This document shows positions 33,144-47,704 of a stretch of DNA of 64,000 nucleotides, piece after piece. The notes below the pieces were generated by a model that was not told the origin of the DNA, made no database searches, and saw only the letters and a list, made by a program, of their open reading frames with translations. Source of the DNA: a virus; IMG/VR virus record IMGVR_UViG_3300044858_004394, positions 5,748 through 69,747 of that record, one strand, 5' to 3'. A program made the position numbers and the translations under genes. Numbering within the stretch: position 1 is the stretch's first letter; the number at the start of each line of letters is the position of its first letter.

Positions 33144-34658
33144 TCAGGCGAACTTCAGGGCAACGAGTGGGCCGGCCTTCGTCGAATCGCCAAGGTCCGT
33201 TACAACCATAGCGTTTCTCGTTGTTGCATGGATCAAAGTCTGATCCAGTTCGATGTACCTCTCTCGGGCCGTCTGGATGCCGATGGCACGACGCTCGCCG
33301 AACACAGCGGCCTGCGAGAGGTCGCCGAAGAGGCAAGCGACCTTGCCGGTCGTGCCGGTCAGGTTCGACTCAAGCGAGTGAGTCAGCCGGACCGGGAAGC
33401 CGAGGAAATTCAGCGTGTTCCAGCCGCTGCCGACATCGTTGACGGTGTTGCCGCCGCCGCTGTTGGTCTGCGTTCCGACGCCGCTGGTGGCCGCACCCGG
33501 ATTCAGGGCGAGGCGGGTCATCGCGGCGCCGAAGCCGACCGGCGAGATGTAGAAAGCGGCGTTCCGCTTGGCGTACATCGGGAGCTTGGCGATCAGGCTC
33601 GTGAAGTCCCGAAGCTCAAGCTGGTCGAACGTCGTGTTGTTGGTCTTCGCCGTCACGACGCTGGCGCTGTGCGTCCCGTCCACGATGGCGACGGCAGCGC
33701 CGACCGTCCCGTGGTACGTGGAGCTTCCGTCCCCGATAAAGCCCGAATTATCGAAGGCTTCTGCGTAGGCTTGTGACACCTCGACGGCCATCGCATCTGC
33801 CAGATCAATGACGGAGTCCTCAAGCAGCGAGTTGGGGATGCGGTTCGCAACGCCCCAAATCTTCGCCACAAGCTGGACGTTGTCGAACTCGACATTGCTG
33901 TCGGTGATCTCGACGTTCTCGCCGACCGGGCGGGCCGCAAGGCCGCTCTTCCGGCGTGCGATGACGAGCGTGTCGCTGTTCATCTGCACGCGGCGGGCGA
34001 ACTGCGGAAACACGCCGTACTCTTCGACGAGACGGATGATTTCCGTCGAGAGTTCTTCGGAAACCAGAACGCCGCCGAGCGAATTGATGCCGCCGGCCTG
34101 CGCGCGGGTCTCGACGCCGTGGTCAGCGCACCACCGGCGGGCTTCGGCGTCGCCGAAGACGTAGCCGCGGATGTGCATGCCGGCCCGGTACGCCCGCTCC
34201 GCGGCGTTGTCGCCACGGAAGGCACGGAGGTTGGAGTGCGACGCGGGGACGGCAAAGACTCGCTTCATGGCGTTTTCTCGCTTTTCAAGGGTTTCGGCAG
34301 GGGCGGCTCGTTCCAGAACAGCACGCATTTCGGCCTCCTTGGCCGCCTTGCGCTCGTAAAAGTCGATCTTGGCCTTGACCTTCTCGGCCTTCTTCATCAG
34401 CCGCTCCAGCGAGCGGGCCTTGACCATCTCGGGGTCTTCCTCTTCCTCGTCTTCCTTCGGCATGTCCTCGCCTTCGGGCATGTCCGACGCCCTCGACATC
34501 TCGTCTTCGCCTTCGGCGGCAGCGGCGTCACCGACGACGACGCTCGCCTCTTCTCCGGTCGGCTCAAGCAGGTCGGTCGCGCCGTCATCGAGGGCGCCCA
34601 TCTCTGCGAGGATGGCGGCGAGTTCGTCAAGAAGCGTTTTGATTTGGGAGGCGGCCAC
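33144..34658 (-). CDS. HK97-fold major capsid protein with N-terminal scaffold (delta) domain
   Basis: Acidic coiled-coil N-terminus; ETRAQAGG...GGVLV, LLEDS, FLGFPV and FGDL motifs. Confidence 0.92.
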   Translation of the reverse strand: MAASQIKTLLDELAAILAEMGALDDGATDLLEPTGEEASVVVGDAAAAEGEDEMSRASDMPEGEDMPKEDEEEEDPEMVKARSLERLMKKAEKVKAKIDFYERKAAKEAEMRAVLERAAPAETLEKRENAMKRVFAVPASHSNLRAFRGDNAAERAYRAGMHIRGYVFGDAEARRWCADHGVETRAQAGGINSLGGVLVSEELSTEIIRLVEEYGVFPQFARRVQMNSDTLVIARRKSGLAARPVGENVEITDSNVEFDNVQLVAKIWGVANRIPNSLLEDSVIDLADAMAVEVSQAYAEAFDNSGFIGDGSSTYHGTVGAAVAIVDGTHSASVVTAKTNNTTFDQLELRDFTSLIAKLPMYAKRNAAFYISPVGFGAAMTRLALNPGAATSGVGTQTNSGGGNTVNDVGSGWNTLNFLGFPVRLTHSLESNLTGTTGKVACLFGDLSQAAVFGERRAIGIQTARERYIELDQTLIHATTRNAMVVTDLGDSTKAGPLVALKFA

Positions 34659-34761
34659 GAGATGACTCCTGAGTGTCGCGTGCGTGTGTGTCGATAACCT
34701 CGACACTTGCAGGCTAGACCGGGAGGGGGCCACCCATCCAGATAGAGAACGCTGTGCTTAC

Positions 34762-34938
34762 CTAGTTAGGTAGCAGCGACCGGCGCCTTATTTCAGACGA
34801 TGGCACGACGCTCTTCGTCGTGTAGCCGCATTTCTGACAGCGCAGATAGCGGGCTTGGTATTCGCCGCGGCACTGGCTGGCATAAACGCCTACGCGTGCG
34901 TTGCGACAACTGGGACAAACGTCGCCGGATTTAGCCAT
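34762..34938 (-). CDS. Ogr/Delta-like zinc-finger protein (58 aa, not in ORF track)
   Basis: MAKSGDVCPSCRNARVGVYASQCRGEYQARYLRCQKCGYTTKSVV. Confidence 0.6.
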   Translation of the reverse strand: MAKSGDVCPSCRNARVGVYASQCRGEYQARYLRCQKCGYTTKSVVPSSEIRRRSLLPN

Positions 34939-35623
34939 GCTTCCGAATGTAATCGGCCAAGGAAGTCCGTGCGCGCTTCAGAATGCTGTCGAGCCTTCCG
35001 CTTCGCGAAAGGTAGACTCGCGGCTTCGCAAGTCCTTTCGACTTGCGAAACATGTCATAGGAACGCATCGCGACCTTGGCGTCGGCATCGGGATAGGCCG
35101 GAAAGGTGACTGGCCCGACATCGATCAGAGAATCGACGCGTTTGATCAATCTCGTGGAGCGGCCTTGCTCGACCGCCCACTCATCCCCGCCCCGCGCAAC
35201 CGTGAAGCTGAAGCTGCTCCCGGAGATGATCCCGTCGCGGATGTTGGTAGCTAAATCCTTCCCGTAGCTGCTATAGGGCACAGGGAATTCATAGCGAAGA
35301 CCGATGTCGTCAACGTAGAGCTTGAGCGTCTTCGGATAACGTGCCAGTGGCATGTCGGCGTTGTGGTTGAAGAGCGCCCGCGTCTCAAGCGGCGACCGCC
35401 GTCCGCGGCGCTCCGTCACGATCCCAAACGCACTTGGATCGATCCTCTCAATGAACTCTCCGTCGATTTCAAGAGAGTTGACCCCGAACTTGGCGGCGTA
35501 GCCGACGATCCATTCGCGACCCTCCTCCCCGTCGTCCGGGCACTCGCAGCGCCGCTCGATGCGCAGGAGCGACCCGCGGCTGTTGTCATCGTACGAAAAG
35601 GACCGTCGCTCAAGGTTTTCCAC
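34931..35623 (-). CDS. HK97-family prohead protease
   Basis: IVGYAAKF, ALFNH, GLRYE, SSFSF and DVGPVTFPAY motifs. Confidence 0.92.
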   Translation of the reverse strand: MENLERRSFSYDDNSRGSLLRIERRCECPDDGEEGREWIVGYAAKFGVNSLEIDGEFIERIDPSAFGIVTERRGRRSPLETRALFNHNADMPLARYPKTLKLYVDDIGLRYEFPVPYSSYGKDLATNIRDGIISGSSFSFTVARGGDEWAVEQGRSTRLIKRVDSLIDVGPVTFPAYPDADAKVAMRSYDMFRKSKGLAKPRVYLSRSGRLDSILKRARTSLADYIRKHG

Positions 35624-35700: not shown

Positions 35701-35934
35701 CTATTGGACAAGGCTCTTTTTGACGGCCTCAAGGTGGGCCATGGCCTCGTCCTTCGTGACGACGCTGCCCTCTTCGTCTAGCCTTTTGATGTTCGTGAAG
35801 GGGAGCCGCTCCCCCTTGTAGTTGATCAGAAAAAACTGGATGCGGCCCTCGCCGTAGTTCTCAGCCACGACGGCAGACATGCCGCACTCATACCACGTTT
35901 CAGACTGGACTGTTCTCGCGTCGTTCTCTGCCAT
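35701..35934 (-). CDS. Small acidic protein, candidate antitoxin
   Basis: 77-aa ORF immediately after the Tsi6-like gene. Confidence 0.5.
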   Translation of the reverse strand: MAENDARTVQSETWYECGMSAVVAENYGEGRIQFFLINYKGERLPFTNIKRLDEEGSVVTKDEAMAHLEAVKKSLVQ

Positions 35935-35936
35935 GT

Positions 35937-36296
35937 TCAGTACCACTCAAGGTCATATTCGTCCACCTCGGCGAACTCCGCGTCGTCGAGCCAGTGCTTG
36001 ATGTAGATCGCCACCTCGCCGGCCATCTGCGCCCAGTCGTCCACCTCTTGAATCTCGCTGCGAAGGGCTTCGTACTCGACCGCCACGATGCGGCAGATGT
36101 CGATGGACTCGATGTCCTCGCGGCTTGGCTGCTCGCCGCCCTTCGTCCACCCCTTGATCGCCCGAAGCTGCGAGGCGACACGGGCAAAGCCCGGATCGTC
36201 CGGCCGGGCCTCGCTTGCCGCGATGGCCTTGTCCAGCGTCGCGTAGAAGCTGTCGCGGTCTTTGATGTGCTGGAAAGAGTCTGCGAACGAACCCAT
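35937..36296 (-). CDS. Tsi6-like immunity protein
   Basis: Helical acidic protein; VASQLRAIKGW...IESIDICRIVAVEYE resembles my recollection of the Tsi6 pattern; downstream of the Ntox46-like domain. Confidence 0.6.
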   Translation of the reverse strand: MGSFADSFQHIKDRDSFYATLDKAIAASEARPDDPGFARVASQLRAIKGWTKGGEQPSREDIESIDICRIVAVEYEALRSEIQEVDDWAQMAGEVAIYIKHWLDDAEFAEVDEYDLEWY

Positions 36297-36300
36297 CTGA

Positions 36301-36708
36301 TTAGCTCCGGTGCTTCACAAGACGATTATACGCACCCGCCAAATACGAATGGTAGTCACGCTTGGCCTTATCGTCTGCGGCGTTCATCTGCCTGACGAGC
36401 TTCTTTGCCCACGACCACCCCGCGTCTGACCCCCACAATGCCCACGCGATCCGGGCATTCGAGGGAAAGTTTTTTTCGCCGGGACTCCAGCCTTCTTTTC
36501 CCTTGTTGACCTGATGCCTGTCGAAGAACGCCTTCATCCTGCGAGCCGTGGTCGGGCTGATCTTCGTGCCGTTCGACAGGTCGCGAGCGCGGGCCACGCC
36601 TACTGCCGTGCCTCCGCGGCCGTGTTCTCTTCGCCACGCCAGCCCTTTCTCTGCCTCCGACCGCACTCTCGCCGGCGGCGTGAAGTCGATGTGGTCATAC
36701 CGTGCCAT
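36301..36708 (-). CDS. Phage head-associated basic protein
   Basis: FTPP...GGTAVGVARARDL...RMKAFFDRH...IAWALWG..AG.SW; I recall this domain from head morphogenesis regions. Confidence 0.65.
   Translation of the reverse strand: MARYDHIDFTPPARVRSEAEKGLAWRREHGRGGTAVGVARARDLSNGTKISPTTARRMKAFFDRHQVNKGKEGWSPGEKNFPSNARIAWALWGSDAGWSWAKKLVRQMNAADDKAKRDYHSYLAGAYNRLVKHRS
36326..36340 (-). promoter_or_regulatory. Partial copy of the early promoter motif upstream of the immunity gene
   Basis: ttatacgcacccgcc (minus strand GGCGGGTGCGTATAAT), about 30 nt before the ATG at 36296. Confidence 0.55.
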
Positions 36709-37832
36709 TACGCCGACCCCTTCACGGTCTGGGGCGCGTCGTCCACCCAGATGTCAACCTTGATGCCGGCGTCTTTAGCCGCGGCATCCTTGAGCTTGTC
36801 GGTGCCGACCAAGAGGACTCGCGAAAAGCTTGTTGCCCACTTGCCGAGTGACTTAGCGACGTACGCCTGATTCTCTGGGGTGTCCTCGCGACGGGACACC
36901 ATGACGACCTTGTTGCCTTCGCCGACAGCCTCCGCAGCGAACTCGCCCCATAGTGCAGGGTCGGCTGCAAAAGTGCGGTCGAAGTCGATGCTAATGGTCA
37001 GTTTGCGACGCTGAAGCGACCGCACGCTCCGCCGCTTGCCGCCCTTCAGCTTGAACTCATCGATGCCGCCTGTCGCCTGCGCGTCCGGAACAAAGTATTG
37101 GACGCCTCCTCCGTTTGCGGCCTGCGGCCGGCTGTCCTTGGTACTCCACGTATCGACGGCTGGGGACGCGTAAGACTGGAGGTATTGGGGTGCGGCTTGC
37201 ACCTCAAACGTGTAAGGGATTTTATCGACGACGGGCTGGCCTTCGGATTTCCAAGCGGTGCCCTTCCTGCCGATTCCAAGCTGCTCTGGCTCCGTGCCCT
37301 CCGTGGAGAAGTAGCCGCCGGCCGGCGGTATGTTGCCGGGGGCCTGCCACTGCACAAGCACGGAAGGCGGCGGCAGTTCCGGGGGCGGGCCGACCTTCAC
37401 TGGCTTCGACCAATCGATTGCCTTCATCTGCCCTTCAAACCGCTGCCGGTCGAGCGGCTTGAGCTTCCCCGTTTTTCTGTCGAGAAAAGCCCCCTTGCTG
37501 TGCATGAAGTGCGACGCGACGACCTTTCTTGCTGCGATCTGCCGCGGAGAGTCGCCGTCCTGAGAGGCAAGCTGTACCTCGCTCTTCGATGGCTTGCGCG
37601 TCGGCACTCGCTCCGGGCGATTCGCGCGTCCCTTCGGCGTCCCCGACTTGTCTCCGCCGGCGGCCCCACCCTTGCCGCCCTTTCCGCTCCCGCATGAATT
37701 ATCGACTCCGCCGCCTGACCCAGTCGGGCAGAAGGCGCGGTCCTCCGCGAGAGCGCCATCGATGAAGAACTTCCTTGCAAGCCTCCAGTACGTCTTCTCT
37801 GAGTCTTTCGTGTTACTGGTCATGTAGACCAT
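36708..37832 (-). CDS. Tagged effector: Ntox46/Tse6-like domain + HAD-like domain
   Basis: LVQWQAPG..GGYFS..EQLGI..LQSYASPAVDTWS..GGGVQYF; C-terminal ISIDFDRTF (DxDxT) and IWVDD. Confidence 0.65.
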   Translation of the reverse strand: MVYMTSNTKDSEKTYWRLARKFFIDGALAEDRAFCPTGSGGGVDNSCGSGKGGKGGAAGGDKSGTPKGRANRPERVPTRKPSKSEVQLASQDGDSPRQIAARKVVASHFMHSKGAFLDRKTGKLKPLDRQRFEGQMKAIDWSKPVKVGPPPELPPPSVLVQWQAPGNIPPAGGYFSTEGTEPEQLGIGRKGTAWKSEGQPVVDKIPYTFEVQAAPQYLQSYASPAVDTWSTKDSRPQAANGGGVQYFVPDAQATGGIDEFKLKGGKRRSVRSLQRRKLTISIDFDRTFAADPALWGEFAAEAVGEGNKVVMVSRREDTPENQAYVAKSLGKWATSFSRVLLVGTDKLKDAAAKDAGIKVDIWVDDAPQTVKGSA

Positions 37833-37835
37833 GCG

Positions 37836-38843
37836 TCACGCCGCTTTCTTTTTCTGTGCCGCTGGCCGCCGAACTGGCGGGCCAAGGTAGTCGTCATACA
37901 AGTCGAGAACCTCTCGCGAGTAGTCGATCCCAAGAGACAGCCCGGTCCGTGTTTCGGCGACAAACTCAAGCGGATTCCTTGTCGCGTATTCGCTCACCTG
38001 CGCGGCAACTTCTTTTGCGGCCTCTTCGCTCATGGGACCGCCTTTGTCGTTGCTGGACTTGTGCGACGCTCTCTCATATCTGGCCCACGGGTCGGTTGTT
38101 GGGACTCCATTAGAAGGCGCTGGATCACCCAGCCAGCGATCCAAATACTGCACCGCCCGCCCTCCGCTTTTGAAGAAATCCGTCATTGCGCGCATGTGGT
38201 CGTGGTGCGCCATCTCGTGAACCATTGAAGTGACATGCTCCTTCCCCGCGACCCCAGCAAGCCATCCCTCTTCGACTGACTGCCTTACCTTTGCGACATC
38301 GTAGTCTGGGTCAAAGTAAAGCACTCCGTTATCCATATTGCATGCAGCCGGCGCGTTGCCGCTGATGTCCTCGACGATGATCTTCTTCGGCAGAGCAACT
38401 CCAAGCCTCTCCAGTTCTTCAACCCCTTGTGTGATCGCATCCATAGCGTCGATGGACGCCGGCCCCTTTTTTCTTCCCTGCATAGAAGGCGGAAGCCCCA
38501 TGCCGGTCCACTCTCCCTGATTGTGCTGAAGCTCAACTCCTTTGCCCGCAAGCCACTCCGTCACTTGCTCTATATGCGCCACCCGCTGCTCCCATGTGTG
38601 CCCGGTCAGCGATCCACGCGGGTCTTCTGGGAATGAACCCTTTGCGGCTGCGGGAGAGGGCGACTGCGGCGCACTTGTTCCGGCGTTTCCCTTGTTCGCG
38701 GGAGAGCAGGAGTTGTCCGGAGGCGAAGCGCCCGGACAGAAAGCACGCGACTCTCCGGGGGCGCTGTCGCCAAGAAAGTCTCTCGCGAGGCCCCAGTAGG
38801 CTTTCTCGATTTCTTTCAGGCTGCTGCCAGTCATGTAGACCAT
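37836..38843 (-). CDS. Tagged effector: HExxH zincin-like peptidase
   Basis: HEMAH...VSEYATRNPLEFVAE; RAFCP tag. Confidence 0.7.
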   Translation of the reverse strand: MVYMTGSSLKEIEKAYWGLARDFLGDSAPGESRAFCPGASPPDNSCSPANKGNAGTSAPQSPSPAAAKGSFPEDPRGSLTGHTWEQRVAHIEQVTEWLAGKGVELQHNQGEWTGMGLPPSMQGRKKGPASIDAMDAITQGVEELERLGVALPKKIIVEDISGNAPAACNMDNGVLYFDPDYDVAKVRQSVEEGWLAGVAGKEHVTSMVHEMAHHDHMRAMTDFFKSGGRAVQYLDRWLGDPAPSNGVPTTDPWARYERASHKSSNDKGGPMSEEAAKEVAAQVSEYATRNPLEFVAETRTGLSLGIDYSREVLDLYDDYLGPPVRRPAAQKKKAA

Positions 38844-38846
38844 GCG

Positions 38847-39800
38847 TCACGCCGCCTTCTTCTTTGCTTTTGCGGCGGGCCTGCGGACGGTCGGCCCGAG
38901 GTAGTCGTCATAGAGCTTCATGACTTTGTCTGAGTAGTTGAGTCCTAGCGAGAGGCCCGTTCGCGTCTCGGCAACGAACTCAAGCGGGTTCATCGTCGCG
39001 TAGACGCTGACCTCGCTGGCGATGAGCCTCGCCCTTTGCGCGTTCGTTCGGTTTCCGCCTTCCGTGGCCCCGTATCCGAATCGTGCGGTCGGCTCCCACG
39101 GATCGGTAGTTGGCCCATAATCGCCCGGATTGCCGCACCACGCTGCCCACACCTCTCTCCCCTTTTCGTCGCCGTACTGGTCTTGCACGGACATGTTGTG
39201 GTCGTGGTGCGACATCTCGTGGATCATTGGGCCGCCGTCCTCTTGCCCTTTGACGCCCGCCAGAAAGCGCTGCTCGACAGAGTCCCTCAGCGCCGCGATG
39301 TCATAGTCCGGGTCAAACCAAATTGTCTGCGTCCCAGAGTGGTATCCGGCCGGCGGGTTTCCGGGGATGTCCGCGATGACAAGCTTCTGCGGAATCCCGA
39401 TACCGACACGCTCAAGCTCCTCGATTCCGCGAGTGACCGCGTCCATCGAGTGCATCGTCGGCGGGTCGCTCTGGCCTGCGGTCCTGATGAATTCGATGCC
39501 CCGAGACGCGAGCCAGTCACTCACCTGCTCAAGGTGCGCAAGCCGCTGCTCCCTTGTGTGTCCCGTCAGCGTTCCGCGTGGGTCGCCCACAAGCGACCCC
39601 GGCGCGGCGGCAGGCTCCGGGGCCTTGGGCGGCGCTGGCCCGGCGGTGCCCTTATTCGCCGGTGAGCAGGAATTATCCGGTGGTGAAGCTCCGGGGCAGA
39701 AGGCCCGCGACTCGTCGTCCGGAGCAAGCCCGACAGCGGCGCTCGCCGCTGCCCAGTACTTCTCCTCAAAGTCTTTGTCGGTCGGCAAAACGTACGTCAC
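38847..39800 (-). CDS. Tagged effector: HExxH zincin-like peptidase
   Basis: HEMSH...VSVYATMNPLEFVAE; RAFCP tag. Confidence 0.7.
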   Translation of the reverse strand: MTYVLPTDKDFEEKYWAAASAAVGLAPDDESRAFCPGASPPDNSCSPANKGTAGPAPPKAPEPAAAPGSLVGDPRGTLTGHTREQRLAHLEQVSDWLASRGIEFIRTAGQSDPPTMHSMDAVTRGIEELERVGIGIPQKLVIADIPGNPPAGYHSGTQTIWFDPDYDIAALRDSVEQRFLAGVKGQEDGGPMIHEMSHHDHNMSVQDQYGDEKGREVWAAWCGNPGDYGPTTDPWEPTARFGYGATEGGNRTNAQRARLIASEVSVYATMNPLEFVAETRTGLSLGLNYSDKVMKLYDDYLGPTVRRPAAKAKKKAA

Positions 39801-39803
39801 GCG

Positions 39804-42800
39804 TCACGCTGCCTTCTTCTTCTGCGCCGTGACGCGAACCGGAGGGCCGAGATAGTCGTCATAGAGGTCAAGCACGCGCTGCGAGTACTCAAGGCCATAG
39901 GCGAGGCCAGCGCGAGTCTCGGCGACGAATTCAAGCGGAGTGACTGTCGCATATCGACTCACCTCGCTCGCGATGGCGATGGCCTCTTTCGGCGACACCC
40001 GGCGTCCGTCACGGTCAACTGAATTCGATGCCATTCGCGTTCCCGGCTCCCACGGGTTTTTCGTTGGGCCGAGGATACCGGGTCTGCCAATCCAATCGCG
40101 GCACTTCTCGACAGCGTCGTCCTTGCCCATCATGACCTTGAGCGCGGACACGTGTTCATGGTGGGCCATCTCGTGGACGATGGCGTTCCCGCCCTCGCTT
40201 CCGGGCACGCCGACCACGGCCTTGAGCAGCACCGCGTTTCGTATCGAATCGATACTCAGGTCTGGGTCGATATGCACCGTCTCCGCGACGATGTCATAGG
40301 CCGCCGGGGCGTTGTGGGGGTGTTCCTCAATGATGATCGTGCGAGGCACCTCCATGCCGTGCCGTTCGATAGCCTCCACGCCGTCCGTAAGGGCCTGCAT
40401 GGCCTGCATCGAAGGCGGGCCGTTGGCGTCGTCCTTCTGCTCAAGCGTGACGCCCTTGGCAGAGAGCCACGCAGCCACTTCGCCAAGGTGGTCATACCGC
40501 TGAAGCTTGGTGTGCCCCGTGACATCGCCGCGAGGGTCATCCGGCAGCGAACCCGGCTCGCGTGAGGGTTTGGGCTGTGCCGGCGGTCGAGCGCCGCCGC
40601 TGCCCTTATTGGAAGGGGAGCATGAGTTGTCCGGCGGAGAGGCGCCGGGGCAGAAGGCCCGAGAGACTCGCTGCGTCAGCCTTGGGGCTTGTCGAGCTTG
40701 CCGGCCATCGCCTTTTTGGCGAACTCCTGAAACGCCTCCGCCATCGCCTTGAAGTCCATCGCCGATCCAGCCGGAAAGTCGAAGCGAGCGAACTGCTTGG
40801 GCGCGGGGGCGCTTTCTGCTCGCTTCGTAGTCTTCGCGGCGGATTTCCCGCCTCTCATCGAGGTGCCAGATCGCGAGTTGGTTCGTTTCTTGCGCTGCAT
40901 CGATGGCCTCGTCTATGTCCTCAAAACGCTTCGATAGGTCGAAGTATACCTTGCCGGTGTTCGTATCAACCCAGCCGCCGAAGTGAAGGTTTTCGCTTTC
41001 TTCAAAAGCTGCCTTGTTCGCTTCGTAGAAGCCCCTGAACGCGGCCTCGTTTACCTGCTCATACGAATCATAAATCACCTCGGCTTCGGGTCGCACCGAA
41101 ACCATGTATCCGGTCGTCGGGCTTTGGGAGGTAACCGGATGAACCGAAAAGCCGCCCGTAGCCTTCATGTTGTCGAGCGCGGCCCGCGACACGGTGCCGA
41201 ACTCGACCTTCTTGCCTTTGCCCTTTACGGCTCCGGAAGCGGCCTTGTTCGCCCCAGCGCCAGCACTTCCGCCCCCGTCCCCCTTGTTCGCAGGCGCGCA
41301 AGAGTTGTCCGGCGGAGAGGCGCCGGGGCAGAAGGCCCGTTTCGCGGTACTCCCCCGCCGGCGGCCGGGCGGCGGCGGCACTTCGTCGAAAGCCCGCGAC
41401 CAAATCAGCATCTGTGCCGCAGCCGACGCCTCAGAGATGGAGTTTGTCTTCGGGTCGGGCTTGTACAGCCCGTGGCTGTTGTCCTTCGGACTGCCACGGT
41501 TTCCGTCATACGCCTGCCGCAGGTGGAACTGAAGCTCCGTCATGACGGAGCGGCCGGCTTGCGTCTGTAGCTCCATCGTCATGTGGACGGCGCCGTAGCC
41601 GGTTTCGCTCTTGTCCTCAAACCTGTTCTTGATCGACACAGCCATGCCCGCCTTCTCGGCCTGCTGCTGCACGGACCGCACGGCGTCGCCAAGTGCTTCC
41701 GGGGTGTCTGCGATCAGTGATCCGCGGACGGCGTCCTTGAGTTCGCGGTTGACGATTGTCGCGTCAGAAACTTCCGGGCCGAGGTTGTCTTCCTTGCGAA
41801 CCCGCGGCACTTTCCCTGCCAGCGACTCAGGAATCTTGAGCATGTGCGTTCCGAACGCATGCTCGCGAAGGTAGTCGTGTGCGGGGTTGTTTGGGTCTGC
41901 TTCTCCAAACGACGCTTCAACGCCCGCGTCCTTGGCGGCCTTCTCGACAATTTCCTTGTACTGCGGCACAACGTCGCGTGCGTCCGCAAGCAACTCATCG
42001 ACGGTTGTGGCTGAGTTGTTTGTCTCGCTCGACTTCTTGCTTGGAACGCCAACCCGCTCCGCAAGCTGTCGCTTTACATCAGCGTGGTGTGTTTGCAGCT
42101 TCGCGTAGTCGCGGGGCACAACGGCGCCTTTCGGAAACTCGTCCGACACAATCGCGCCGTCCACGTAGGAGCCGCCAGCCACCTTGTCTGCGTGCTTCTC
42201 AAGCGCCGGCACGCTGACATCGACAGCACGAACCCGCCCGCTGCTTCCGCTTCCGCCACTCCCGCCCTTGCCGCTGCCGCACGAGTTGTCCACGCCGCCG
42301 CCGGGGCCGGTGGGGCAGAAGGCGCGACTGCCGCGTCCCTTCATCAGCTTCTTGTAGTCGGCTTCGCCCATGACGCGAGCCGGCATGTCCTTGCCGAGAG
42401 CGCTGTACATGGCAACGCGGTGGTGCCCGTCCACGATATGAAGGTTGCCGTTGCCGTCGTCCCACAGCTTGGTGACGTAGCCTTCGCGAAACGGCTCGTC
42501 GCCTGACACGACCTTCTCAATCGGCGCCGTCTTCAGCGTCTCTTCGTTCGCCTTGAGCGTGGTCCCGGCGGGGATCGTCGTGACCGGCAGTTCGTTCCAC
42601 TTGTCGTCCGGAACCTCGCGAGCCTTCTCGACGACCTTCGCGTTCTCGGGCGAGTAGTCCATGCCGTACTCAGAGGCAAAGACACGGCCCGGACCGGCAT
42701 CACCGGAGTCCTTCGCAGAGCATGTGTTATCCACTCCGCCGCCGGGGCCTGTGGGGCAGAAGGCGCGAATGCTTCTGCTCGACTTGGTCGGCCTCTTCAG

Positions 42801-42866
42801 CATCATCGAAGCCGCTGCCCAGTACTCCTTGCGGCTGTTGTCGTCCGCGACAAATACGAAAGCCAT
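39804..42866 (-). CDS. Polyvalent protein: ParB-like + RelA/SpoT-like + unknown + HExxH peptidase domains, four RAFCP tags
   Basis: IVDGHHR; K.PES..GK, KDAVRG, GYGAVH, ELQFH, HGLY; GGFSVHP..GYMVS..FGGW; HEMAH..PLEFVAE. Confidence 0.75.
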   Translation of the reverse strand: MAFVFVADDNSRKEYWAAASMMLKRPTKSSRSIRAFCPTGPGGGVDNTCSAKDSGDAGPGRVFASEYGMDYSPENAKVVEKAREVPDDKWNELPVTTIPAGTTLKANEETLKTAPIEKVVSGDEPFREGYVTKLWDDGNGNLHIVDGHHRVAMYSALGKDMPARVMGEADYKKLMKGRGSRAFCPTGPGGGVDNSCGSGKGGSGGSGSSGRVRAVDVSVPALEKHADKVAGGSYVDGAIVSDEFPKGAVVPRDYAKLQTHHADVKRQLAERVGVPSKKSSETNNSATTVDELLADARDVVPQYKEIVEKAAKDAGVEASFGEADPNNPAHDYLREHAFGTHMLKIPESLAGKVPRVRKEDNLGPEVSDATIVNRELKDAVRGSLIADTPEALGDAVRSVQQQAEKAGMAVSIKNRFEDKSETGYGAVHMTMELQTQAGRSVMTELQFHLRQAYDGNRGSPKDNSHGLYKPDPKTNSISEASAAAQMLIWSRAFDEVPPPPGRRRGSTAKRAFCPGASPPDNSCAPANKGDGGGSAGAGANKAASGAVKGKGKKVEFGTVSRAALDNMKATGGFSVHPVTSQSPTTGYMVSVRPEAEVIYDSYEQVNEAAFRGFYEANKAAFEESENLHFGGWVDTNTGKVYFDLSKRFEDIDEAIDAAQETNQLAIWHLDERREIRREDYEASRKRPRAQAVRSLRLSGWIGDGLQGDGGGVSGVRQKGDGRQARQAPRLTQRVSRAFCPGASPPDNSCSPSNKGSGGARPPAQPKPSREPGSLPDDPRGDVTGHTKLQRYDHLGEVAAWLSAKGVTLEQKDDANGPPSMQAMQALTDGVEAIERHGMEVPRTIIIEEHPHNAPAAYDIVAETVHIDPDLSIDSIRNAVLLKAVVGVPGSEGGNAIVHEMAHHEHVSALKVMMGKDDAVEKCRDWIGRPGILGPTKNPWEPGTRMASNSVDRDGRRVSPKEAIAIASEVSRYATVTPLEFVAETRAGLAYGLEYSQRVLDLYDDYLGPPVRVTAQKKKAA

Positions 42867-45608
42867 CTACGCCGTCCTCCTGCGGGAGCCTCGACGCACG
42901 AGTTCTGCCGGCCCGCCGTAGTCGTCATAGAGCGACAGCACATCGTCGCCGTATGTGGCGCCGGCAGACTGCCCCGAAACGACCTCGGCCACGAACTCAA
43001 GCGGGTTTGTCGTCGCGTACTCGCTTACCTTTGCGGCAATGCTGCGAGCCTCGTCTGGGTCAACGGGCTTTCCGTCTTCGTTCAGCGCCGCGGAGCCGAA
43101 TCGCGCCGACTTTGTCCACGGGTCTTTTGTTGGAAATCCGTCGTCGTCCGGGTTTCCAAAGAGCATCCCCACTCGTTCGCTGGCTGCATTGTCAACGGCC
43201 TGCTCGTCCTTGCCTCTATAGAACGATGGAACTTTGTCGCGAATGCTTGCGATGTGCTGCTTGTGTGCAGACTCGTGAACAAGCACATCCGGCAACGCGT
43301 TGCTCGCAAACTGCCCCGGCTTTGCTTTGCCAAGACTTGAGATGTTGAAGTTAGGGTTGATCGCAATGGAGTTGTTCCACTGATAGAAGGCTGCCGCTGC
43401 TTTGGGCGGAAGGCCGTCATCAAAAATGATTGCTTCCGGCTTCGCCATTCCAAGCTCAACAATCTTCGGCACCCCCTCCGTGACCAACTGCATCGCGTGC
43501 ATTGAAGGTGGTAGCGGGTCAGCGAAGTCTCCGTACTCGACGAGCATGATCCCGTGGTGTTCCTTCAACCACTGTTCGACCTCTTTCGCGTAGGCAAGGC
43601 GCTGCTCCGCCGTGTGGCCGGTTAGCTTCCCTCGCGGGTCGTCGTCACCGACCGGGGTCTTCGACGGTTCCGGTGCGGCTGGCGGCCGTGGTGCTGAGTC
43701 TCCCTTGTTTGCTGGCGAGCATGTGTTGTCCGGAGGCGAGGCGCCGGGGCAGAACGCGCGTGAGTCCTGCGGGCCGCTCGTCGGCTGCTCTGGCGCACCC
43801 GGAGGCCCGCCGGGTCCGAATGGAGACTGGCCTTCCGGGGCGCCCGGAGGAGGTTGCTGCGGCGGCTGTTGCTGCTTCGCGCCGGCAATGATCGCTTGCG
43901 CCAGCGGCTGCGGCATCGTCGGGAAGACCGCCGTCACGATGGAGAGGGCAGCTTCCGGCGTGACCGCCCCTTGGGTCACCTGCCCGAGGATCGCAAGCAG
44001 CCCGCCAACGTCTGCCGTGGGCCGCTCCTGCGGCTGAGAGGGCGGATTGACGCCCGCCACGATCTGGCGTGTCGTGGCGTCCGGCAGGCCCGGATAGACG
44101 GAGCCAAGGGCCGCGACCGCGGCGTCCGGGGTCAGGCCGCCCTCCTTCACCTGCGCGAGGATTGTCACCAGCCCGCCGACCTCCGCCGCCGGACGATCTG
44201 CCGGCTGTTCGGTCGGCTTCTCCGGACCCGATACTCCCGCCACGATCTGAGAGGCAAGGTTCTCTGGCAGCGCCGGGAAGGCGGCGGCCATGATGCTCTT
44301 CGCCGCTTCCGGGGCGATTGAGCCGGCGGCGATCTGTGAAAGAACCGCTACTAGCTCGTTCACGCTCGCCGCAGGAGTCGGGGGCGGCGCCGGGGCAGGG
44401 GGCTGGTTCGCCGCCGCCTCCAGCGTCTGCATGTTTAGCGGCGTGAACCGGGTGTCGCCGCCCTCGACCGGATTCAGGTTCTCCCACGCCCGCAGTTCGT
44501 TGACCGAAGCAACGCCGAGGCCGTGAAGCGTCTGGTAGTAGCTGGCCCGCGCGGCGGCATCGCCTCGCATGAAGCCGCGTGTGTCGAATTCGGTGAAGTG
44601 AGTCGTGTCGCCGTCGCCAAACAGGTCGCGGTGAAACGCCGACTCAAACCGCCGCAACCACGGCAGGAGCGTGTGCTGCACAAAGTCGATACTTTGCTGC
44701 TCGATATTCGCGAACGTGCTTCGCGAAAGGTCACCCACCAAATGGGGGGGTACTCGGTAGAGTCGGCATACTTCCTCGATCTGAAACCGCCTCGTCTCAA
44801 GAAACTGCGATTCTTGGTTCGTGTTCCCGAATTCGACGGGCTTGAGTCCCCCGGTGAGTACAGCCGTTTTCTGCGCGCGGTCTGGGCCTCTATGAACGCG
44901 CTCCCAATTCACTCGCAGCGTCTCGGCCGCATCGACGGAGAGGTTGTTGTCGGTCGATAAAACAAGGCCCGGACGCGCGCCGTTCGCAAAGAAACTGGCG
45001 CCGTGAATCTCGCAGGCTCTGGCAAGCCCGATGGCGTCCTTCGCAAGCTCGATTGGAACCATGCCGTTGACTCCGTCGTTCGTGAGCCAACGGATGTGCA
45101 TGATCTGATCTTGCGAGTACGTCGTGAGCCGTCCGGTCTCCTCCTGATACGTGTATCGAATTGTTCCCGTTTCGATACTTTCAACCCGCATTCGACTCGG
45201 GTGAAGGGGAATGAGTTCGCGGACGATGTCCCGCTCGTCTCGCACGATCTCATTGAACGACTGGCCGTAGATGCCGAGGTGCAGCATCTGCATCTCGCGC
45301 CACTCAAAGCTCGTCTGCCACGCGTTCGGCTTGTCGTGCAAGACACGGTACAGCGGATGCTCGCGGGCGATGTCCTTCCCGCCGTTCGCGACCCTTCGAT
45401 ATACGTGGATTGGGAGTGTCGCGACCGATTCTGCGAGGACGCGAACGCAAGCCAATACAGTGGTGCTGTTGAGGGCCGTATTCGCGTCCACCCTGACGCC
45501 GGCCGGGTTGCGGCTTCCGCCGGTGAACGTGTTCGACTCATAGTCGAACAGTGAGCGCGCCTCATAGTCCGACGCCGGGAGCCACAGGATGCCCGTCTCT
45601 TGACTCAT
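42867..45608 (-). CDS. HK97-family portal protein with C-terminal extension (3 helical repeats + tag + HExxH peptidase)
   Basis: VLACVRVLAESVATLP, FFANGARP, QFLETRRFQIEEVCRLYRVPPHLVG, NIEQQS and NELRAWENL; then about 490 extra aa. Confidence 0.93.
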   Translation of the reverse strand: MSQETGILWLPASDYEARSLFDYESNTFTGGSRNPAGVRVDANTALNSTTVLACVRVLAESVATLPIHVYRRVANGGKDIAREHPLYRVLHDKPNAWQTSFEWREMQMLHLGIYGQSFNEIVRDERDIVRELIPLHPSRMRVESIETGTIRYTYQEETGRLTTYSQDQIMHIRWLTNDGVNGMVPIELAKDAIGLARACEIHGASFFANGARPGLVLSTDNNLSVDAAETLRVNWERVHRGPDRAQKTAVLTGGLKPVEFGNTNQESQFLETRRFQIEEVCRLYRVPPHLVGDLSRSTFANIEQQSIDFVQHTLLPWLRRFESAFHRDLFGDGDTTHFTEFDTRGFMRGDAAARASYYQTLHGLGVASVNELRAWENLNPVEGGDTRFTPLNMQTLEAAANQPPAPAPPPTPAASVNELVAVLSQIAAGSIAPEAAKSIMAAAFPALPENLASQIVAGVSGPEKPTEQPADRPAAEVGGLVTILAQVKEGGLTPDAAVAALGSVYPGLPDATTRQIVAGVNPPSQPQERPTADVGGLLAILGQVTQGAVTPEAALSIVTAVFPTMPQPLAQAIIAGAKQQQPPQQPPPGAPEGQSPFGPGGPPGAPEQPTSGPQDSRAFCPGASPPDNTCSPANKGDSAPRPPAAPEPSKTPVGDDDPRGKLTGHTAEQRLAYAKEVEQWLKEHHGIMLVEYGDFADPLPPSMHAMQLVTEGVPKIVELGMAKPEAIIFDDGLPPKAAAAFYQWNNSIAINPNFNISSLGKAKPGQFASNALPDVLVHESAHKQHIASIRDKVPSFYRGKDEQAVDNAASERVGMLFGNPDDDGFPTKDPWTKSARFGSAALNEDGKPVDPDEARSIAAKVSEYATTNPLEFVAEVVSGQSAGATYGDDVLSLYDDYGGPAELVRRGSRRRTA

Positions 45609-47235
45609 ATGATCAGGATTTCGGGGGTTTTCGTGGTCTGCGGCGAGGCTTCGTTCGTCATCCAGCAGCCGACCGCTTGGCACAGGGCGACGATTCCGTC
45701 GATCCTCTCAGTGCTTTTTGCCTTGCTCGGATAGATATTTCCAAACTTGTCCTCGGCCACGGCGGCGTTGTCGGCGCACCACGACAGAACCGGGTGGTTC
45801 GCGTGCCGTACTTTGCCGCCTTGGACAAGGTTCTCAAGCGCACGAGCCGGCCCAGTCATGGTGCGACCGCCTTGTGCAAATCCTCTCACATCCACCCCCT
45901 CCCCTTGCAGAGTGTTCGCCAGCATCTGCGCGTTGAACCTGATGTCCACTCCTAGCTGACGCACGCCGTACTTCTGGCAGATTTCCACGATGTCCCTGTG
46001 CAGGATCGTGTAGTCGGTAGTGTTCCCCTCCGTGGTCCGCAGGTGGCCGTCGCGTATCCACGCGTCATACGGCACCTTGTCCCGGTTGATCCGCTCTACG
46101 GCGTTCGCCTCCGGTATCCAGAAGAACGGCAGCACATCAATCGAGCCGTCGGTGGCGTCCGGGCAGACCAGCACCATCGCCGTCAGGTCATACGTGGTCG
46201 CGAGGTCGAGGCCGGCGTAGACGGGTCGGCCGTCGAACGGCCGCAGCGGCTGGTTCCCCAACTGCCACGTTTCGGGCTTGAACCAGCGATTATCTTGGGT
46301 CGTCCAGACGTTGAGCCTGTAACGCAAAAAAGAGTTGAGCTTGGTCGGACTCCGCTCGGCCTCTCTGGCATCCGCGGCAAATGACTCGACGGTGATCGTC
46401 TCGCCGAGGCTTGGGTTCGCCATCCTCCAAACCCGCTCCTCTTTCCACGATCCGTCGGTCGCGCAGTCCTGCGGCGCAGCGTAGATCAGCGGGTAGAACG
46501 ACGGATCGAACTCCGGATCGGCAAGGCACCTTTCCGCGTACTGGTGCTGCTCCCAGCAAATCGACCGGCGATCAAACCCGGCCGTGGAGATGGACAGGAG
46601 AAGCGGCTGCTTCCTCGCGGCGCCGCCGTAACGGAGTGCGTCCCATAAACGGCGGTCGCGTTGTGCGTGCAGGTTTTTCTGGGTCGCCCCCCCCCGCCGC
46701 TTGGCCGGGGGGCGCAACCCAGTTCGTCGAATAAGAGGGCATGTATGTTCAAGCCCTCCGCCCTGAATGCGTCAGCGCTAAGTACGCGATAGAAAGAATT
46801 ACTCCTGCGATGAAGGATCGTTTTGCGACTGTCGATGACCTCTAGCTGCTTCGACAGAGCAGGGGAGGCTCGCACCATCGCGGCGGCCTCTCTGTAGATA
46901 ATTCCCGCTTGCTCACGGTCACTCGCCGCACCGTAGCACTCACAGCCCGCTTCAGAATCAGCGACGAGCATGTAGAGCGCAATTCCGGCAAGCGTGGTCG
47001 ATTTTCCTTGTTTTTTCGGGACTTCGATGTAGGCAGTTCTGTACTTGCGAACGCCCGTGGCGGGATTCTTTCTTCCGAAAAGCTCGCGGAGCATCTTCCG
47101 CTGCCAGTCCATGAGATAGAACGGCTGGCCGGCGAGGTCGCCCTTGGAGTGCCGAAGCATCTCCTCAAAGAAGCGGCACACGCGGTTGGCGGCGGCAGGG
47201 TCGAAGTCGCCGCCTTCGTCGTCAAGCGTTTCGCT
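45605..47235 (-). CDS. terL: Terminase large subunit, split by a 50-nt insert at 46670-46719 (start approximate)
   Basis: VPKKQGKST (Walker A), LLFDEL|HAQ (Walker B), ISTAG, GLDLA and RIDGIVA; the two halves are in different frames. Confidence 0.9.
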
Positions 47236-47704
47236 TGAGGAAGTCGTCAAGCTCGTCTTGTTGCTGCGATTGCGAGGCACTCAAGCCGCTCCGTGACGAT
47301 GGAGTCAAGCCAAACTCTTGCTCGATGCGGAGCATCGAAGCCGCGAGCTTCGCCATCATGGTCGCCGCCGGCGTGGATTGCATGTACTTCACCTTGCCGG
47401 AGTCATCACGAATAACAAGAACGTCAAGCCCGCGACGGACCTGATCAAGGTATTTCAGGTACTGCTCGTGCATGGAGCAGTAGCGGGCAACGGTGTCGAT
47501 GTCGGCGTTCGTCATGACGCCCATGCCGAGAAGCTTCGGGACAAGCTCGTTCCACTTGTCCAGAGATTTGCCGGTCACCCAGTCGGGCGGTGAGATGCCG
47601 TCACTGGCCGGCTTCGGCTCGTTGTGGTTGATCGCCCTTTTGCCGGGGTTGCCTTTGGCGATCTTCAGAATCGTCGGCTCTGGCCGACGGCCTCGCTTGC
47701 CCAT
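47222..47704 (-). CDS. terS: Terminase small subunit, P27 family
   Basis: MGKRGRRPEPT...GNPGKR...EFGLTPSSR. Confidence 0.92.
   Translation of the reverse strand: MGKRGRRPEPTILKIAKGNPGKRAINHNEPKPASDGISPPDWVTGKSLDKWNELVPKLLGMGVMTNADIDTVARYCSMHEQYLKYLDQVRRGLDVLVIRDDSGKVKYMQSTPAATMMAKLAASMLRIEQEFGLTPSSRSGLSASQSQQQDELDDFLKRNA

What the first reader, a model, noticed from the sequence alone, without database searches (positions are those of the whole stretch)
35701..45608. Portal-anchored array of tagged effector domains: candidate capsid-packaged, protease-released toxin cargo system
Seen: about 8 kb between the portal core and the prohead protease encode 4 HExxH peptidase domains and single ParB-like, RelA/SpoT-like, unknown, Ntox46-like and HAD domains. 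Every domain except the HAD is preceded by RAFCP...DN(S/T)C (8 copies, two subtypes), and the first is fused to the portal itself. Known: this locus holds MuF/polyvalent toxins in other phages, and HK97-type prohead proteases process head proteins; the capsid here has a comparable ETR|AQ junction. Inference: the tag is a capsid-targeting and/or R|A cleavage signal that loads and releases a set of effectors injected with the DNA, with no recognisable MuF domain.
Basis: partly seen in the sequence, partly recalled or inferred. Interest (0 to 1): 0.9.

Follow-up and report, generated by a model that had tools for sequence, protein, structure and literature searches.

The report
Tagged effector array in phage head
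A phage head gene cluster encodes a string of toxin-like and enzyme domains, each introduced by the same short cysteine-containing tag, and the same tag turns out to mark the domain boundaries of hundreds of giant head-associated proteins in other uncultured phages.

Summary
Eight RAFCP…DN(S/T)C tags (5 of type A, 3 of type B) and four HExxH modules lie in five same-frame ORFs between an HK97-type portal and an S78 prohead protease; chance expects none. The window is an uncultured virus record rated complete.

The tag is not local. A profile of it finds 258 representative proteins, with up to 10 tags each. Of 120 listed tag proteins, 67 carry portal, prohead-protease or MuF domains. No Pfam or NCBIfam model covers the tag, and its strings are absent from the searchable literature.

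Best reading: a split phage "polyvalent protein" packaged in the capsid. Each joint has a lineage-specific prohead-protease site (E-x-R|A here) followed by an invariant Cys loop of unknown role. Support:
- The same E-x-R|A lies at the predicted capsid maturation site.
- A sister lineage has K at both places.
- Stand-alone proteases end at that Arg.
- The tag is modelled as disordered.

Against: the core also occurs in phages with no recognisable prohead protease. Nothing is shown experimentally. This is a new variant of a known kind.

The parts
45605..47280 (-). Large terminase in two overlapping frames (46486-47280 and 45605-46717); context only
   Evidence: ORF list and translations. The function is read from the sequence, with no family scan run.
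44382..45683 (-). Portal core (residues 1 to about 434 of the 938-aa ORF 42867-45683)
   Evidence: PF04860 E 3e-107 at residues 75-402; TIGR01537 portal_HK97 E 1.4e-72; phrog_12
43869..44369 (-). Three helical repeats of about 57 aa after the portal core, then a Pro/Gln-rich linker
   Evidence: Read from the translation. One such repeat stands in the L001 portal.
43719..43760 (-). Tag 1, type A (DSR|AFCPGASPPDNTC), fused to the portal
42870..43691 (-). HExxH metallopeptidase module 1 (C-terminal part of the portal ORF)
   Evidence: Aligned with its paralogues, H-E-x-x-H-x-x-H and EFVAE invariant
39804..42866 (-). p1020: leader, tag 2 (B), ParB-like lead, tag 3 (B), RelA/SpoT-like lead, tag 4 (A), domain of unknown function, tag 5 (A), HExxH module 2
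   Evidence: The orthologue P0012 has the same order, but a type-A tag at the second position.
42720..42767 (-). Tag 2, type B (SIR|AFCPTGPGGGVDNTC)
42279..42326 (-). Tag 3, type B (GSR|AFCPTGPGGGVDNSC)
41298..41339 (-). Tag 4, type A (AKR|AFCPGASPPDNSC)
40620..40661 (-). Tag 5, type A (VSR|AFCPGASPPDNSC)
38847..39800 (-). p317: leader helix, tag 6 (A, 39666-39707), HExxH module 3
37836..38843 (-). p335: leader helix, tag 7 (A, 38706-38747), HExxH module 4
   Evidence: AF2: helix 8-23, residues 25-40, 42-45 and 49-51 (most of the tag and what precedes it) below pLDDT 50, blocks from residue 61 on mostly above 85.
36708..37832 (-). p374: leader, tag 8 (B, 37692-37739), Ntox46/Tse6-like NADase domain (37083-37475), HAD-like domain without tag (36720-37004)
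   Evidence: Pfam Ntox46 E 1.1e-9; PDB 4zv0/4zv4 E 7e-8; phrog_4919 E 2.1e-12 at residues 277-371; alignment A8
36301..36708 (-). p135: domain that in relatives is fused to the N-terminus of the S78 protease
   Evidence: phrog_2859 E 1.7e-27; 65 local domain hits, among them in protease ORFs such as L042, L043 and L091
35701..36296 (-). p119 and p81: small ORFs of unknown role. A p81-like domain precedes a tag in P0092.
   Evidence: no family
34931..35623 (-). S78 (HK97-type) prohead serine protease, stand-alone
   Evidence: PF04586 E 8.5e-31
33144..34733 (-). Major capsid protein with a roughly 210-aa N-terminal scaffold-like region; predicted maturation site ETR210|A211 at 34101-34106
   Evidence: PF05065 E 2e-28 at residues 220-513; junction conserved in 18 of 18 clade capsid proteins; mapped onto HK97 gp5

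Best explanation
The 8.7 kb between portal core and prohead protease encode a phage polyvalent protein that is split into five co-oriented ORFs and anchored to the head by fusion of its first unit to the portal.

Every unit is introduced by a bipartite joint. First comes a short lineage-specific site, E-x-R|A in this clade. I propose that the phage's own S78 prohead protease cuts it inside the procapsid, as it cuts the capsid protein. Next comes an almost invariant Cys-bounded loop (FCPGxSPPDNSC or FCPTGxGGGxDNSC) and a Gly/Ser/Pro-rich linker. These would stay on the N-terminus of the released domain.

Cleavage would free single-domain cargo from portal, protease or neighbouring domains so that it can leave with the DNA. 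The cargo here is four zincin-like peptidases, a Tse6-like NADase and likely ParB-like, RelA/SpoT-like and HAD-like enzymes.

Shown: the anatomy, the wide recurrence of the tag, its association with head proteins, and selection on it at the protein level. Inferred: packaging, cleavage at R|A, injection, and any role of the Cys loop.
For: 1. Anatomy. There are 8 tags where chance expects 0, each before one domain. The portal, S78 protease and HK97-type capsid are identified.

2. Selection acts on the peptide, not the DNA. Among the 5 type-A copies, 13 of 20 codon columns vary only synonymously and 3 change the residue. Pairwise, 93 codon differences are synonymous and 12 are not.

3. Recurrence. 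258 proteins match at E<=1e-3 among 1.84 billion representatives. In the 150 listed there are 362 tags, 0 to 10 per protein, with a median spacing of 258 aa.

4. Head link. Of 38 scanned tag proteins, 8 have MuF, 4 have a portal domain and 2 have S78. Of 120 listed, 21 have PF04860, 24 PF04586, 20 PF04233, 1 PF05136 and 1 PF06381 (my count).

5. Same order in a relative. L001 runs portal-HAD / tag+unidentified domain (R-S-E-type ADP-ribosyltransferase motifs by my eye only) / tag+domains+HExxH / S78 / capsid.

6. Site match. [ED]-x-R|[AV] stands at the scaffold/shell junction in 18 of 18 distinct capsid proteins of the clade (17 have Ala and one Val after the Arg). In the window this is R210|A211. 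It lies 53 residues before an anchor that aligns with HK97 gp5 residue 157, the same distance as S104. By Pfam coordinates it falls within 1 residue of the HK97 site. Tags of the R class have E or D at P3 in 257 of 360.

7. Co-variation. In the 4 K-class records that have a PF05065 capsid, the equivalent junction is EQK|S, EQK|A (twice) or WHK|T. Their tags read x-x-K|A, except one STR|A. All 4 encode S78.

8. Uniformity within proteins. The residue before the tag is the same in all tags of 98 of 107 multi-tag proteins. The mean share is 0.97, against a maximum of 0.70 in 1000 shuffles.

9. Module boundary. 7 of 8 distinct stand-alone proteases of the clade end in ...R-stop, aligned with the P1 Arg of protease-tag fusions. 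E-S-R-A without the Cys loop precedes the HAD-like domain in 6 of 11 aligned relatives, 5 of them on ORFs that match the portal profile; 5 others have E-G-R-S or E-A-R-D.

10. Accessibility. The tag is modelled as disordered (pLDDT below 50) in two AF2 models, next to confident domains.

11. R-[AG] dipeptides are 83 observed against 50.7 expected in the scaffold-like parts, and 41 against 63.1 in the shell parts, of the 18 related capsid proteins.
Against: - No experiment exists, and no virion proteome or cultured phage with the tag was found. The phage collection gave no match to p335.
- The co-variation rests on two clades (R and K), both with a basic residue, so it amounts to about two independent events.
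- The capsid site is predicted by analogy. The HMM anchor to HK97 is weak (E 0.0035 in a two-sequence search) and BLASTP does not align the two proteins. The site K103|S104 itself is recalled from the HK97 literature.
- The invariant core is not explained. It is the same with HK97-, lambda-, Mu- and portal_3-type portals. Five N/L-class records that are 90-100% complete gave no hit to S78, ClpP or S49. They gave none to S77 or Mu-like protease either, but for those two the control genomes also gave nothing.
- PF05065 was absent from 5 of 5 N-class and 2 of 2 L-class records, and from 4 Y/F-class and 4 K-class fragments that are only 8-17% complete.
- One K-class record has one R tag.
- The window's own protease ends in ...KHG, not R.
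- [ED]-x-R-[AG] also occurs inside domains, for example ETRAG in module 2 and ETRAL in the protease.
Confidence: 0.5

Rival explanations
1. The tag is not a cleavage site. It is a structural or binding element, and the polyprotein stays whole or is cut elsewhere. The element could be a metal (Zn or Ca) or disulfide clasp that compacts or cross-links cargo in the head. It could also be a retention or ejection signal read by something common to all tailed phages or hosts.
For: - Two invariant Cys, an invariant Asp and a Gly-rich turn recur across classes.
- The core is the same with four portal families and in records without a recognisable prohead protease.
- Tags occur a few residues from the N-terminus of some proteins, for example F at residue 9 in P0016 and residue 5 in P0109. 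A cleavage site alone would be pointless there.
- Types A and B replace each other at the same position in orthologues.
Against: - Effectors fused to the dodecameric portal or to the protease must be released to act in the host, and the tag is the only conserved element between anchor and cargo.
- The class-specific, within-protein uniform residues just before the core and their match to the capsid junction are not explained by a clasp.
- AF2 gives the tag no fold of its own.
Confidence: 0.2
2. The joints are cut by peptidases carried in the polyproteins themselves, here the four HExxH modules. Cutting would happen in the head or after injection, as proposed in general for polyvalent proteins.
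For: - Iyer et al. 2017 (PMC5512222, passages seen) propose processing of polyvalent proteins by zincin-like metallopeptidases.
- 4 of the 5 type-A tags in the window directly precede an HExxH module.
- Tag proteins elsewhere carry an ATLF-type zincin (PF07737 in P0135) or a papain-like peptidase (PF12385 in P0064).
Against: - The type-A tag is a trait of the lineage, not of the peptidase. It precedes the unknown domain here and the RelA/SpoT-like domain in P0012.
- No peptidase family is common to tag proteins in the scan of 38.
- Four paralogues at 41-52% identity look like diversified effectors rather than one processing enzyme.
- The match to the capsid junction is not explained.
Confidence: 0.13
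3. The core is a self-cleaving or recoding element. One form would be Asn- or Asp-Pro-based backbone cleavage; another would be a 2A-like translational break. Either would separate domains without any protease.
For: - D-N and D-P alternate at one position of the core (232 against 86 of 320 type-B tags), and both are chemically labile bonds (from general knowledge).
- The core is invariant whatever the head type.
- The position between the domains of a viral polyprotein fits.
Against: - A loop of 12-14 residues modelled as disordered is unlikely to catalyse cleavage.
- The class-specific upstream residues are unexplained.
- No precedent in bacteria is known to me.
Confidence: 0.05
4. The tags are DNA-level recombination joints for shuffling modules, or plain low-complexity linkers.
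For: Domains are shuffled between relatives at the tags.
Against: Synonymous sites vary freely while the residues are kept. The peptide is near-invariant over hundreds of proteins whose domains are unrelated.
Confidence: 0.03

Closest known systems
Phage-type polyvalent proteins (Iyer, Burroughs, Anand, de Souza, Aravind 2017, J Bacteriol; PMC5512222, passages read)
   Same: - Many effector domains (zincin peptidases, ADP-ribosyltransferases, ParB and others) sit on one polypeptide.
- They are encoded beside the portal-terminase head genes, are sometimes fused to MuF or portal, and are thought to be packaged and injected.
- Processing by peptidases is proposed.
   Different: - Here the protein is split into five same-frame ORFs and there is no MuF.
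- Every unit is introduced by a conserved Cys-loop tag. In that paper's main text the words linker, cysteine, spacer, interdomain, disordered and low-complexity have no occurrence. Its supplementary alignments could not be seen.
- The tag strings occur in no relevant paper of the searchable library.
T4 internal proteins with a capsid targeting sequence, and the ejection proteins of giant phages cut by the prohead protease (PMC8442874 passage; SPN3US papers seen only as a search listing with abstracts)
   Same: - Cargo is loaded into the prohead.
- It is trimmed by the prohead protease at a short motif also used in head proteins, kept in the head and delivered with the DNA.
- In the relative L026 the protease tail helix holds YQEFIAE, the core of the T4 sequence MKTYQEFIAE.
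   Different: - The protease family differs (S78 against S77) and so does the proposed motif (E-x-R|A against [LI]-x-E|, the latter recalled).
- Here the motif recurs between the domains of polyproteins and is followed by an invariant Cys loop, which T4 lacks.
MuF polymorphic toxins of temperate phages (Jamet et al. 2017, PMC5576092)
   Same: A head-associated anchor is followed by variable toxin domains at the same locus, between portal and head genes.
   Different: - No MuF domain is recognised in the window.
- There are many domains rather than one C-terminal toxin.
- That paper's main text has no occurrence of cleav-, linker, cysteine, glycine or junction.
MARTX toxins (recalled, no call)
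   Same: Effector domains are strung on one polypeptide and released by cuts at short inter-domain sites.
   Different: MARTX toxins are secreted bacterial toxins cut by their own cysteine protease domain in eukaryotic cells. There is no relation in sequence or delivery route.

Membership tests
Phage-type polyvalent protein | Two or more unrelated effector or enzyme domains on one polypeptide of a phage | tested here: met
   p1020 has four distinct regions separated by tags. One of them has 47 domain hits in other tag proteins and virus-contig ORFs, the HExxH module has 63, and the other two regions are found only in the orthologue P0012. p374 has Ntox46 plus a HAD-like domain.
Phage-type polyvalent protein | Encoded within the portal-terminase head module | tested here: met
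   The gene order is terminase, portal, array, S78 protease, capsid.
Phage-type polyvalent protein | Packaged in the capsid and delivered to the host | not testable with these tools
   Inferred from the fusion to the portal and from relatives fused to the protease or MuF.
MuF (SPP1 gp7 / Mu gp30) polymorphic toxin | N-terminal MuF domain (PF04233) | tested here: not met
   No PF04233 hit in any ORF of the array at E<=0.01, nor in its segments at E<=10. MuF is present in 8 of 38 and 20 of 120 tag proteins elsewhere.
HK97-type head module | HK97-family portal, S78 prohead protease and PF05065 capsid protein with an N-terminal scaffold-like region | tested here: met
   TIGR01537 at 244.7 bits (cut-off 112). 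PF04586 at 107.8 bits and PF05065 at 100 bits, starting at residue 220.
Zincin-like metallopeptidase | HExxH helix plus a downstream Glu ligand on a zincin fold | tested here: inconclusive
   HExxH and EFVAE are invariant in 7 of 7 aligned sequences. No Pfam or PDB sequence hit. Foldseek gave 0 matches at E<=0.001; nearly all weak matches listed are zincin-type metallopeptidases, best 4l7a at E 0.026 and TM 0.29.
Ntox46 / Tse6 NAD(P)+ glycohydrolase toxin | Match to PF15538 above the gathering score | tested here: met
   38.9 bits against a cut-off of 25, residues 125-248. PDB 4zv0_A and 4zv4_C at E 7e-8. Catalytic residues were not checked.
RelA/SpoT nucleotidyltransferase | Match to PF04607 or a solved relative | tested here: not met
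   No Pfam hit at E<=10, no PDB hit, and no homologue of 172-550 aa. Only a lead remains: an Atlas cluster at 0.93 in which 34% of members carry PF04607, and four motifs I read by eye against recalled consensus motifs.
ParB/sulfiredoxin fold | Match to PF02195 or a related model | tested here: inconclusive
   Only DUF1015 at E 0.076 over the DGHHR stretch, and an Atlas cluster at 0.91 in which 26% of members carry ParB_N.
HAD phosphatase | The four HAD motifs on a Rossmann-like fold | tested here: inconclusive
   DFDRT (DxDxT) and a C-terminal DD are invariant in 12 of 12 aligned sequences. No Pfam hit and no PDB relative. The phrog families hit have no known function.
T4-type capsid targeting sequence system | An N-terminal peptide that loads cargo and is removed by the prohead protease | not testable with these tools
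   Leaders of about 30 aa with a helix stand before the tag in p1020, p317, p335 and p374. Loading and removal were not tested.

The most novel reading that the evidence does not exclude
The invariant Cys loop would be an autonomous module, independent of head type, that marks every protein domain co-packaged and co-injected with phage DNA. It could be a metal- or redox-switched release, retention or ejection element. If so, it is a sequence signature from which injected effectors, most of them of unknown function, can be read directly out of metagenomes.
Probability: 0.2. Interest if true: 0.85.

Novelty: new variant of a known kind. Interest (0 to 1): 0.7.

Why it matters
Which phage proteins travel with the DNA into the cell, and how they are loaded and freed, is known for only a few model phages. 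A short, nearly invariant tag would give a simple sequence handle on this cargo. It delimits single domains in hundreds of head-associated polyproteins (362 tags in 150 listed proteins).

That cargo includes many domains with no known family, which are candidate anti-defence or take-over effectors. If the E-x-R|A edge is a prohead-protease site, HK97-type heads would have a cargo-processing system analogous to the capsid targeting sequence of T4. Such a system could also be used to load foreign proteins into capsids.

Tried and rejected
- Complex prediction of the window's S78 protease (25-row alignment) with a 42-aa tag segment (54 rows): score 0.02 against a mark of 0.32. The verdict was no answer, and it counts neither for nor against binding.
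- AF2 model of a natural protease-helix-tag fusion (L026), to see whether the tag docks in cis. The protease is confident and helix 209-223 is predicted, but residues 225-233 and 235-266, which hold the tag, are below pLDDT 50. This is uninformative.
- tblastn of p335 against 50,697 phage records: no match.
- tblastn of the 10-tag protein P0061 and of the unknown domain found only single homologous domains in cultured phages, none through the tag region.
- Genome collection. The peptide-pattern scan found 100 stretches, none a relative. The type-B DNA pattern found only 4 stretches, all in metagenome-assembled genomes.
- Cluster look-up of 8 tag proteins held by NCBI gave no accessions or organism names.
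- Sequence searches of PDB with p1020 and with profiles of the HAD-like, unknown and HExxH domains gave nothing, or one chance hit.
- A search for stand-alone relatives of the RelA/SpoT-like segment gave none.
- BLASTP of the window capsid protein against HK97 gp5 gave no usable alignment.
- The co-variation test could not be extended to the N, L and Y classes, because their capsid and protease genes were not recognised.
- Recombination-joint reading: rejected on synonymous variation.

Full report
**What is there**

The window is all but the first 5.7 kb of an uncultured virus record of 69,747 bases that CheckV rates complete. On the minus strand lie, in order:
- a small and a large terminase (the large one in two frames);
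- a 938-aa portal ORF;
- ORFs of 1020, 317, 335 and 374 aa;
- three small ORFs;
- an S78 prohead protease;
- a PF05065 capsid protein with an N-terminal region of about 210 aa.

A regex scan over all six frames finds exactly eight tags of the form R-A-F-C-P…D-N-[ST]-C and four HExxH motifs, all in one frame. Five tags are type A (FCPGASPPDN[ST]C) and three are type B (FCPTG[PS]GGGVDN[ST]C). Degenerate DNA patterns for the two types match 5 and 3 times, against 0 in 100 shuffles each. A tag profile finds no further copy in the whole record.

The portal ORF continues after its core with three repeats of about 57 aa, a Pro/Gln-rich stretch, tag 1 and the first HExxH module. The five large ORFs share one reading frame. 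They are separated only by TAG-ATG and by TGA-CGC-[AG]TG three times. Each separately started ORF opens with a leader of about 30 aa (M-x-[FY]…[KT]-[EAKT]-Y-W…) that ends in the tag.

**Domain content**

- Ntox46 is firm (Pfam 38.9 bits, cut-off 25; Tse6 chains in PDB at E 7e-8).
- The four HExxH modules are paralogues at 41-52% identity with invariant H-E-x-x-H-x-x-H and EFVAE.
  - An AF2 model of p335 with a 21-row alignment is confident (mean pLDDT 82.9; most 10-residue blocks from 61 to 330 above 85).
  - It has a leader helix at 8-23, and residues 25-40, 42-45 and 49-51, which cover most of the tag, are below pLDDT 50.
  - Foldseek against PDB gives no match at E<=0.001. Nearly all of the weak matches listed are zincin-type metallopeptidases.
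- The ParB-like, RelA/SpoT-like and HAD-like labels are leads only.
- The "unknown" domain is common: 47 local domain hits in other tag proteins and virus-contig ORFs. It also occurs as a stand-alone gene in 121 phage records, 117 of them Mycobacterium phages.

**The tag is under selection as a peptide**

Among the five type-A copies, 13 of 20 codon columns show only synonymous variation and 3 show a residue change. This removes the idea of a DNA-level joint or of recent gene conversion.

The HExxH family is rare: 11 proteins at E<=0.001 in a library of 5.8 billion. In every relative fetched, the tag is nearly unchanged while the domains around it are 32-50% identical and reshuffled. Examples are Ntox46+peptidase, unknown+peptidase, and another peptidase type. 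In the orthologue P0012 the second tag is type A where the window has type B, so the two types are interchangeable.

**The tag is widespread and tied to head proteins**

- A 32-position profile of ten tags, scored against 1.84 billion representatives, gives 258 proteins at E<=1e-3 and 61 at E<=1e-10, up to 4,059 aa long.
- In the 150 listed I count 362 tags. Two proteins have none by my regex and one has ten. The median spacing is 258 aa; 320 tags are type B and 40 are type A.
- The core [FWY]-C-[PA]-T-G-x-G-G-G-[VIQ]-D-[NP]-[ST]-C is almost invariant.
- Pfam scans of 38 of these proteins give MuF in 8, portal domains in 4 and S78 in 2. They also give ADP-ribosyltransferases, Zeta toxin, Ntox46, GNAT, topoisomerase IB and a 2H phosphoesterase. 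No family covers the tag itself, and NCBIfam has none either.
- A second search with a 42-aa profile lists 120 of 231 hits. By my count 21 carry PF04860, 24 PF04586, 20 PF04233, 1 PF05136 and 1 PF06381; none carries a conjugation domain.
- The type-B DNA pattern hits at least 117 stretches of IMG/VR contigs. It hits only 4 stretches, all in metagenome-assembled genomes, among one genome for each of 185,579 species.
- The literal tag strings occur in no relevant paper of the searchable library; the only 2 hits are on parechovirus.
- The main texts of the two closest papers do not use the words that would describe such a tag. Their supplements could not be seen.

**Evidence bearing on mechanism**

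Tags fall into classes by the residues just before the core:
- R class, E-x-R|[AG], 63 loci.
- N class, [LP]-[TV]-x-N|[AV], 34 loci.
- K class, x-x-K|A, 13 loci.
- L class, P-x-G-[LIV]-x-L|A, 4 loci.
- Y and F classes, 6 loci.

Within a protein all tags share the class residue in 98 of 107 cases. The mean share is 0.97, against at most 0.70 in 1000 shuffles.

R-class loci carry portal, S78 and capsid genes homologous to the window's (36, 38 and 30 ORF hits). In 18 of 18 distinct capsid proteins of this clade, [ED]-x-R|[AV] (Ala in 17, Val in one) stands at the junction of the N-terminal region and the shell domain.

In the window this is R210|A211. It lies 53 residues before an anchor that aligns with residue 157 of HK97 gp5, the same distance as S104. 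By Pfam coordinates it is 9 rather than 8 residues before model position 1. That HK97 is cut at K103|S104 is recalled from the literature.

Four K-class records with a PF05065 capsid have EQK|S, EQK|A (twice) or WHK|T at that place. All four encode S78. Their tags have K, with one R exception.

In 14 distinct fusions the protease domain is followed, after a helix, by a tag about 30-54 residues later. Seven of eight distinct stand-alone proteases of the clade end in …R-stop, exactly where the fusions have the P1 Arg. E-S-R-A without the Cys loop precedes the HAD-like domain in 6 of 11 aligned relatives, five of them on ORFs that match the portal profile.

Taken together, E-x-R| behaves as a module boundary that is also used at the capsid maturation site. 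This is what a prohead-protease site would look like. Release is also logically needed: enzymes tethered to a dodecameric portal or to the protease cannot act in the host unless they are cut off.

**What this does not explain**

The Cys-loop core is identical in phages with HK97-, lambda-, Mu- and portal_3-type portals. Five N- or L-class records that are 90-100% complete gave no hit to S78, ClpP or S49. They gave none to S77 or Mu-like protease models either, though for those two the controls were also silent. They gave none to PF05065.

So the core must do something that does not depend on one protease family. A metal or disulfide clasp, a retention or ejection signal, or self-cleavage are all open. 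Other peptidases carried in the polyproteins could make the cut. The co-variation amounts to two clades. The complex prediction and the cis-fusion model gave nothing usable.

**Verdict**

- The system is a phage polyvalent protein, a known kind, in an unusual split and portal-anchored form.
- Its recurrent bipartite tag appears to be undescribed.
- I put about 0.5 on the joint being cut by the prohead protease at E-x-R|A, with the Cys loop staying on the cargo.
- I put about 0.8 on the broader statement that these are capsid-packaged effector modules.

Noticed in passing
window 45605-47280 (-): The large terminase is in two overlapping frames (264-aa and 370-aa ORFs overlapping at 46486-46717). 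The N-part runs into nonsense soon after ...LLFDELG. This could be an assembly error, a real frameshift or a broken gene.
   Followed up: partly
window 36708-45683 (-): Five consecutive ORFs (portal to p374) share one reading frame. They are separated only by TAG-ATG and three times by TGA-CGC-[AG]TG, with AAGAAGG-like runs upstream. This could mean translational coupling or stop read-through. In L001 the first junction (portal-HAD ORF to the next ORF) is an overlap in another frame.
   Followed up: partly
window 43869-44369 (-): Three repeats of about 57 aa (V..L..IL.QV..G..TPEAA....FP.LP...A.QI.AG) follow the portal core. The L001 portal has one such unit.
   Followed up: no
window 36301-36708 (-); L042, L043, L091, L057, L065: The p135 domain (phrog_2859) is a separate ORF here. 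In relatives it is the N-terminal part of the S78 protease protein.
   Followed up: partly
window 35701-35946 (-); P0092: A p81-like domain forms residues 5-73 of P0092, directly before a tag at residue 83. It may be another head-internal anchor or cargo.
   Followed up: no
L026:5655-6452 (+); also L010, L015, L046: The helix at the end of the protease, just before the tag, reads ...RKYQEFIAERR|GFCP. YQEFIAE is the core of the T4 IPIII capsid targeting sequence MKTYQEFIAE (PMC8442874). Whether this is chance, convergence or shared targeting logic is not known.
   Followed up: partly
L001:2447-4768 (+), L018, L088, L110: A third, looser tag type exists: R-[ED]-C-G-x(3-5)-G-G-x-F-x-x-G-N-[TA]-C. 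It stands at domain boundaries, including directly after the protease tail.
   Followed up: no
window 43623-43646 and equivalents in p1020, p317, p335: About 40 residues after each tag that precedes an HExxH module stands a conserved [DEG]-D-P-R-G-x-[LV]-T-G-H. It lies in a confidently modelled part of the peptidase. It could be a second [ED]-x-R|G site.
   Followed up: no
L017, L103, L055, L091, L001, L050: In these relatives the HAD-like domain is preceded by E-S-R-A but has no Cys loop, and in five of them (L050 was not checked) it ends the portal-matching ORF. In the window the domain ends p374 after the NADase and is preceded by QRRK.
   Followed up: partly
window 40656-41297 (-): The unknown domain of p1020 has stand-alone homologues (about 31% identity over half its length) in 117 Mycobacterium phage records, and at 40% identity in a Fusobacterium phage.
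   Followed up: no
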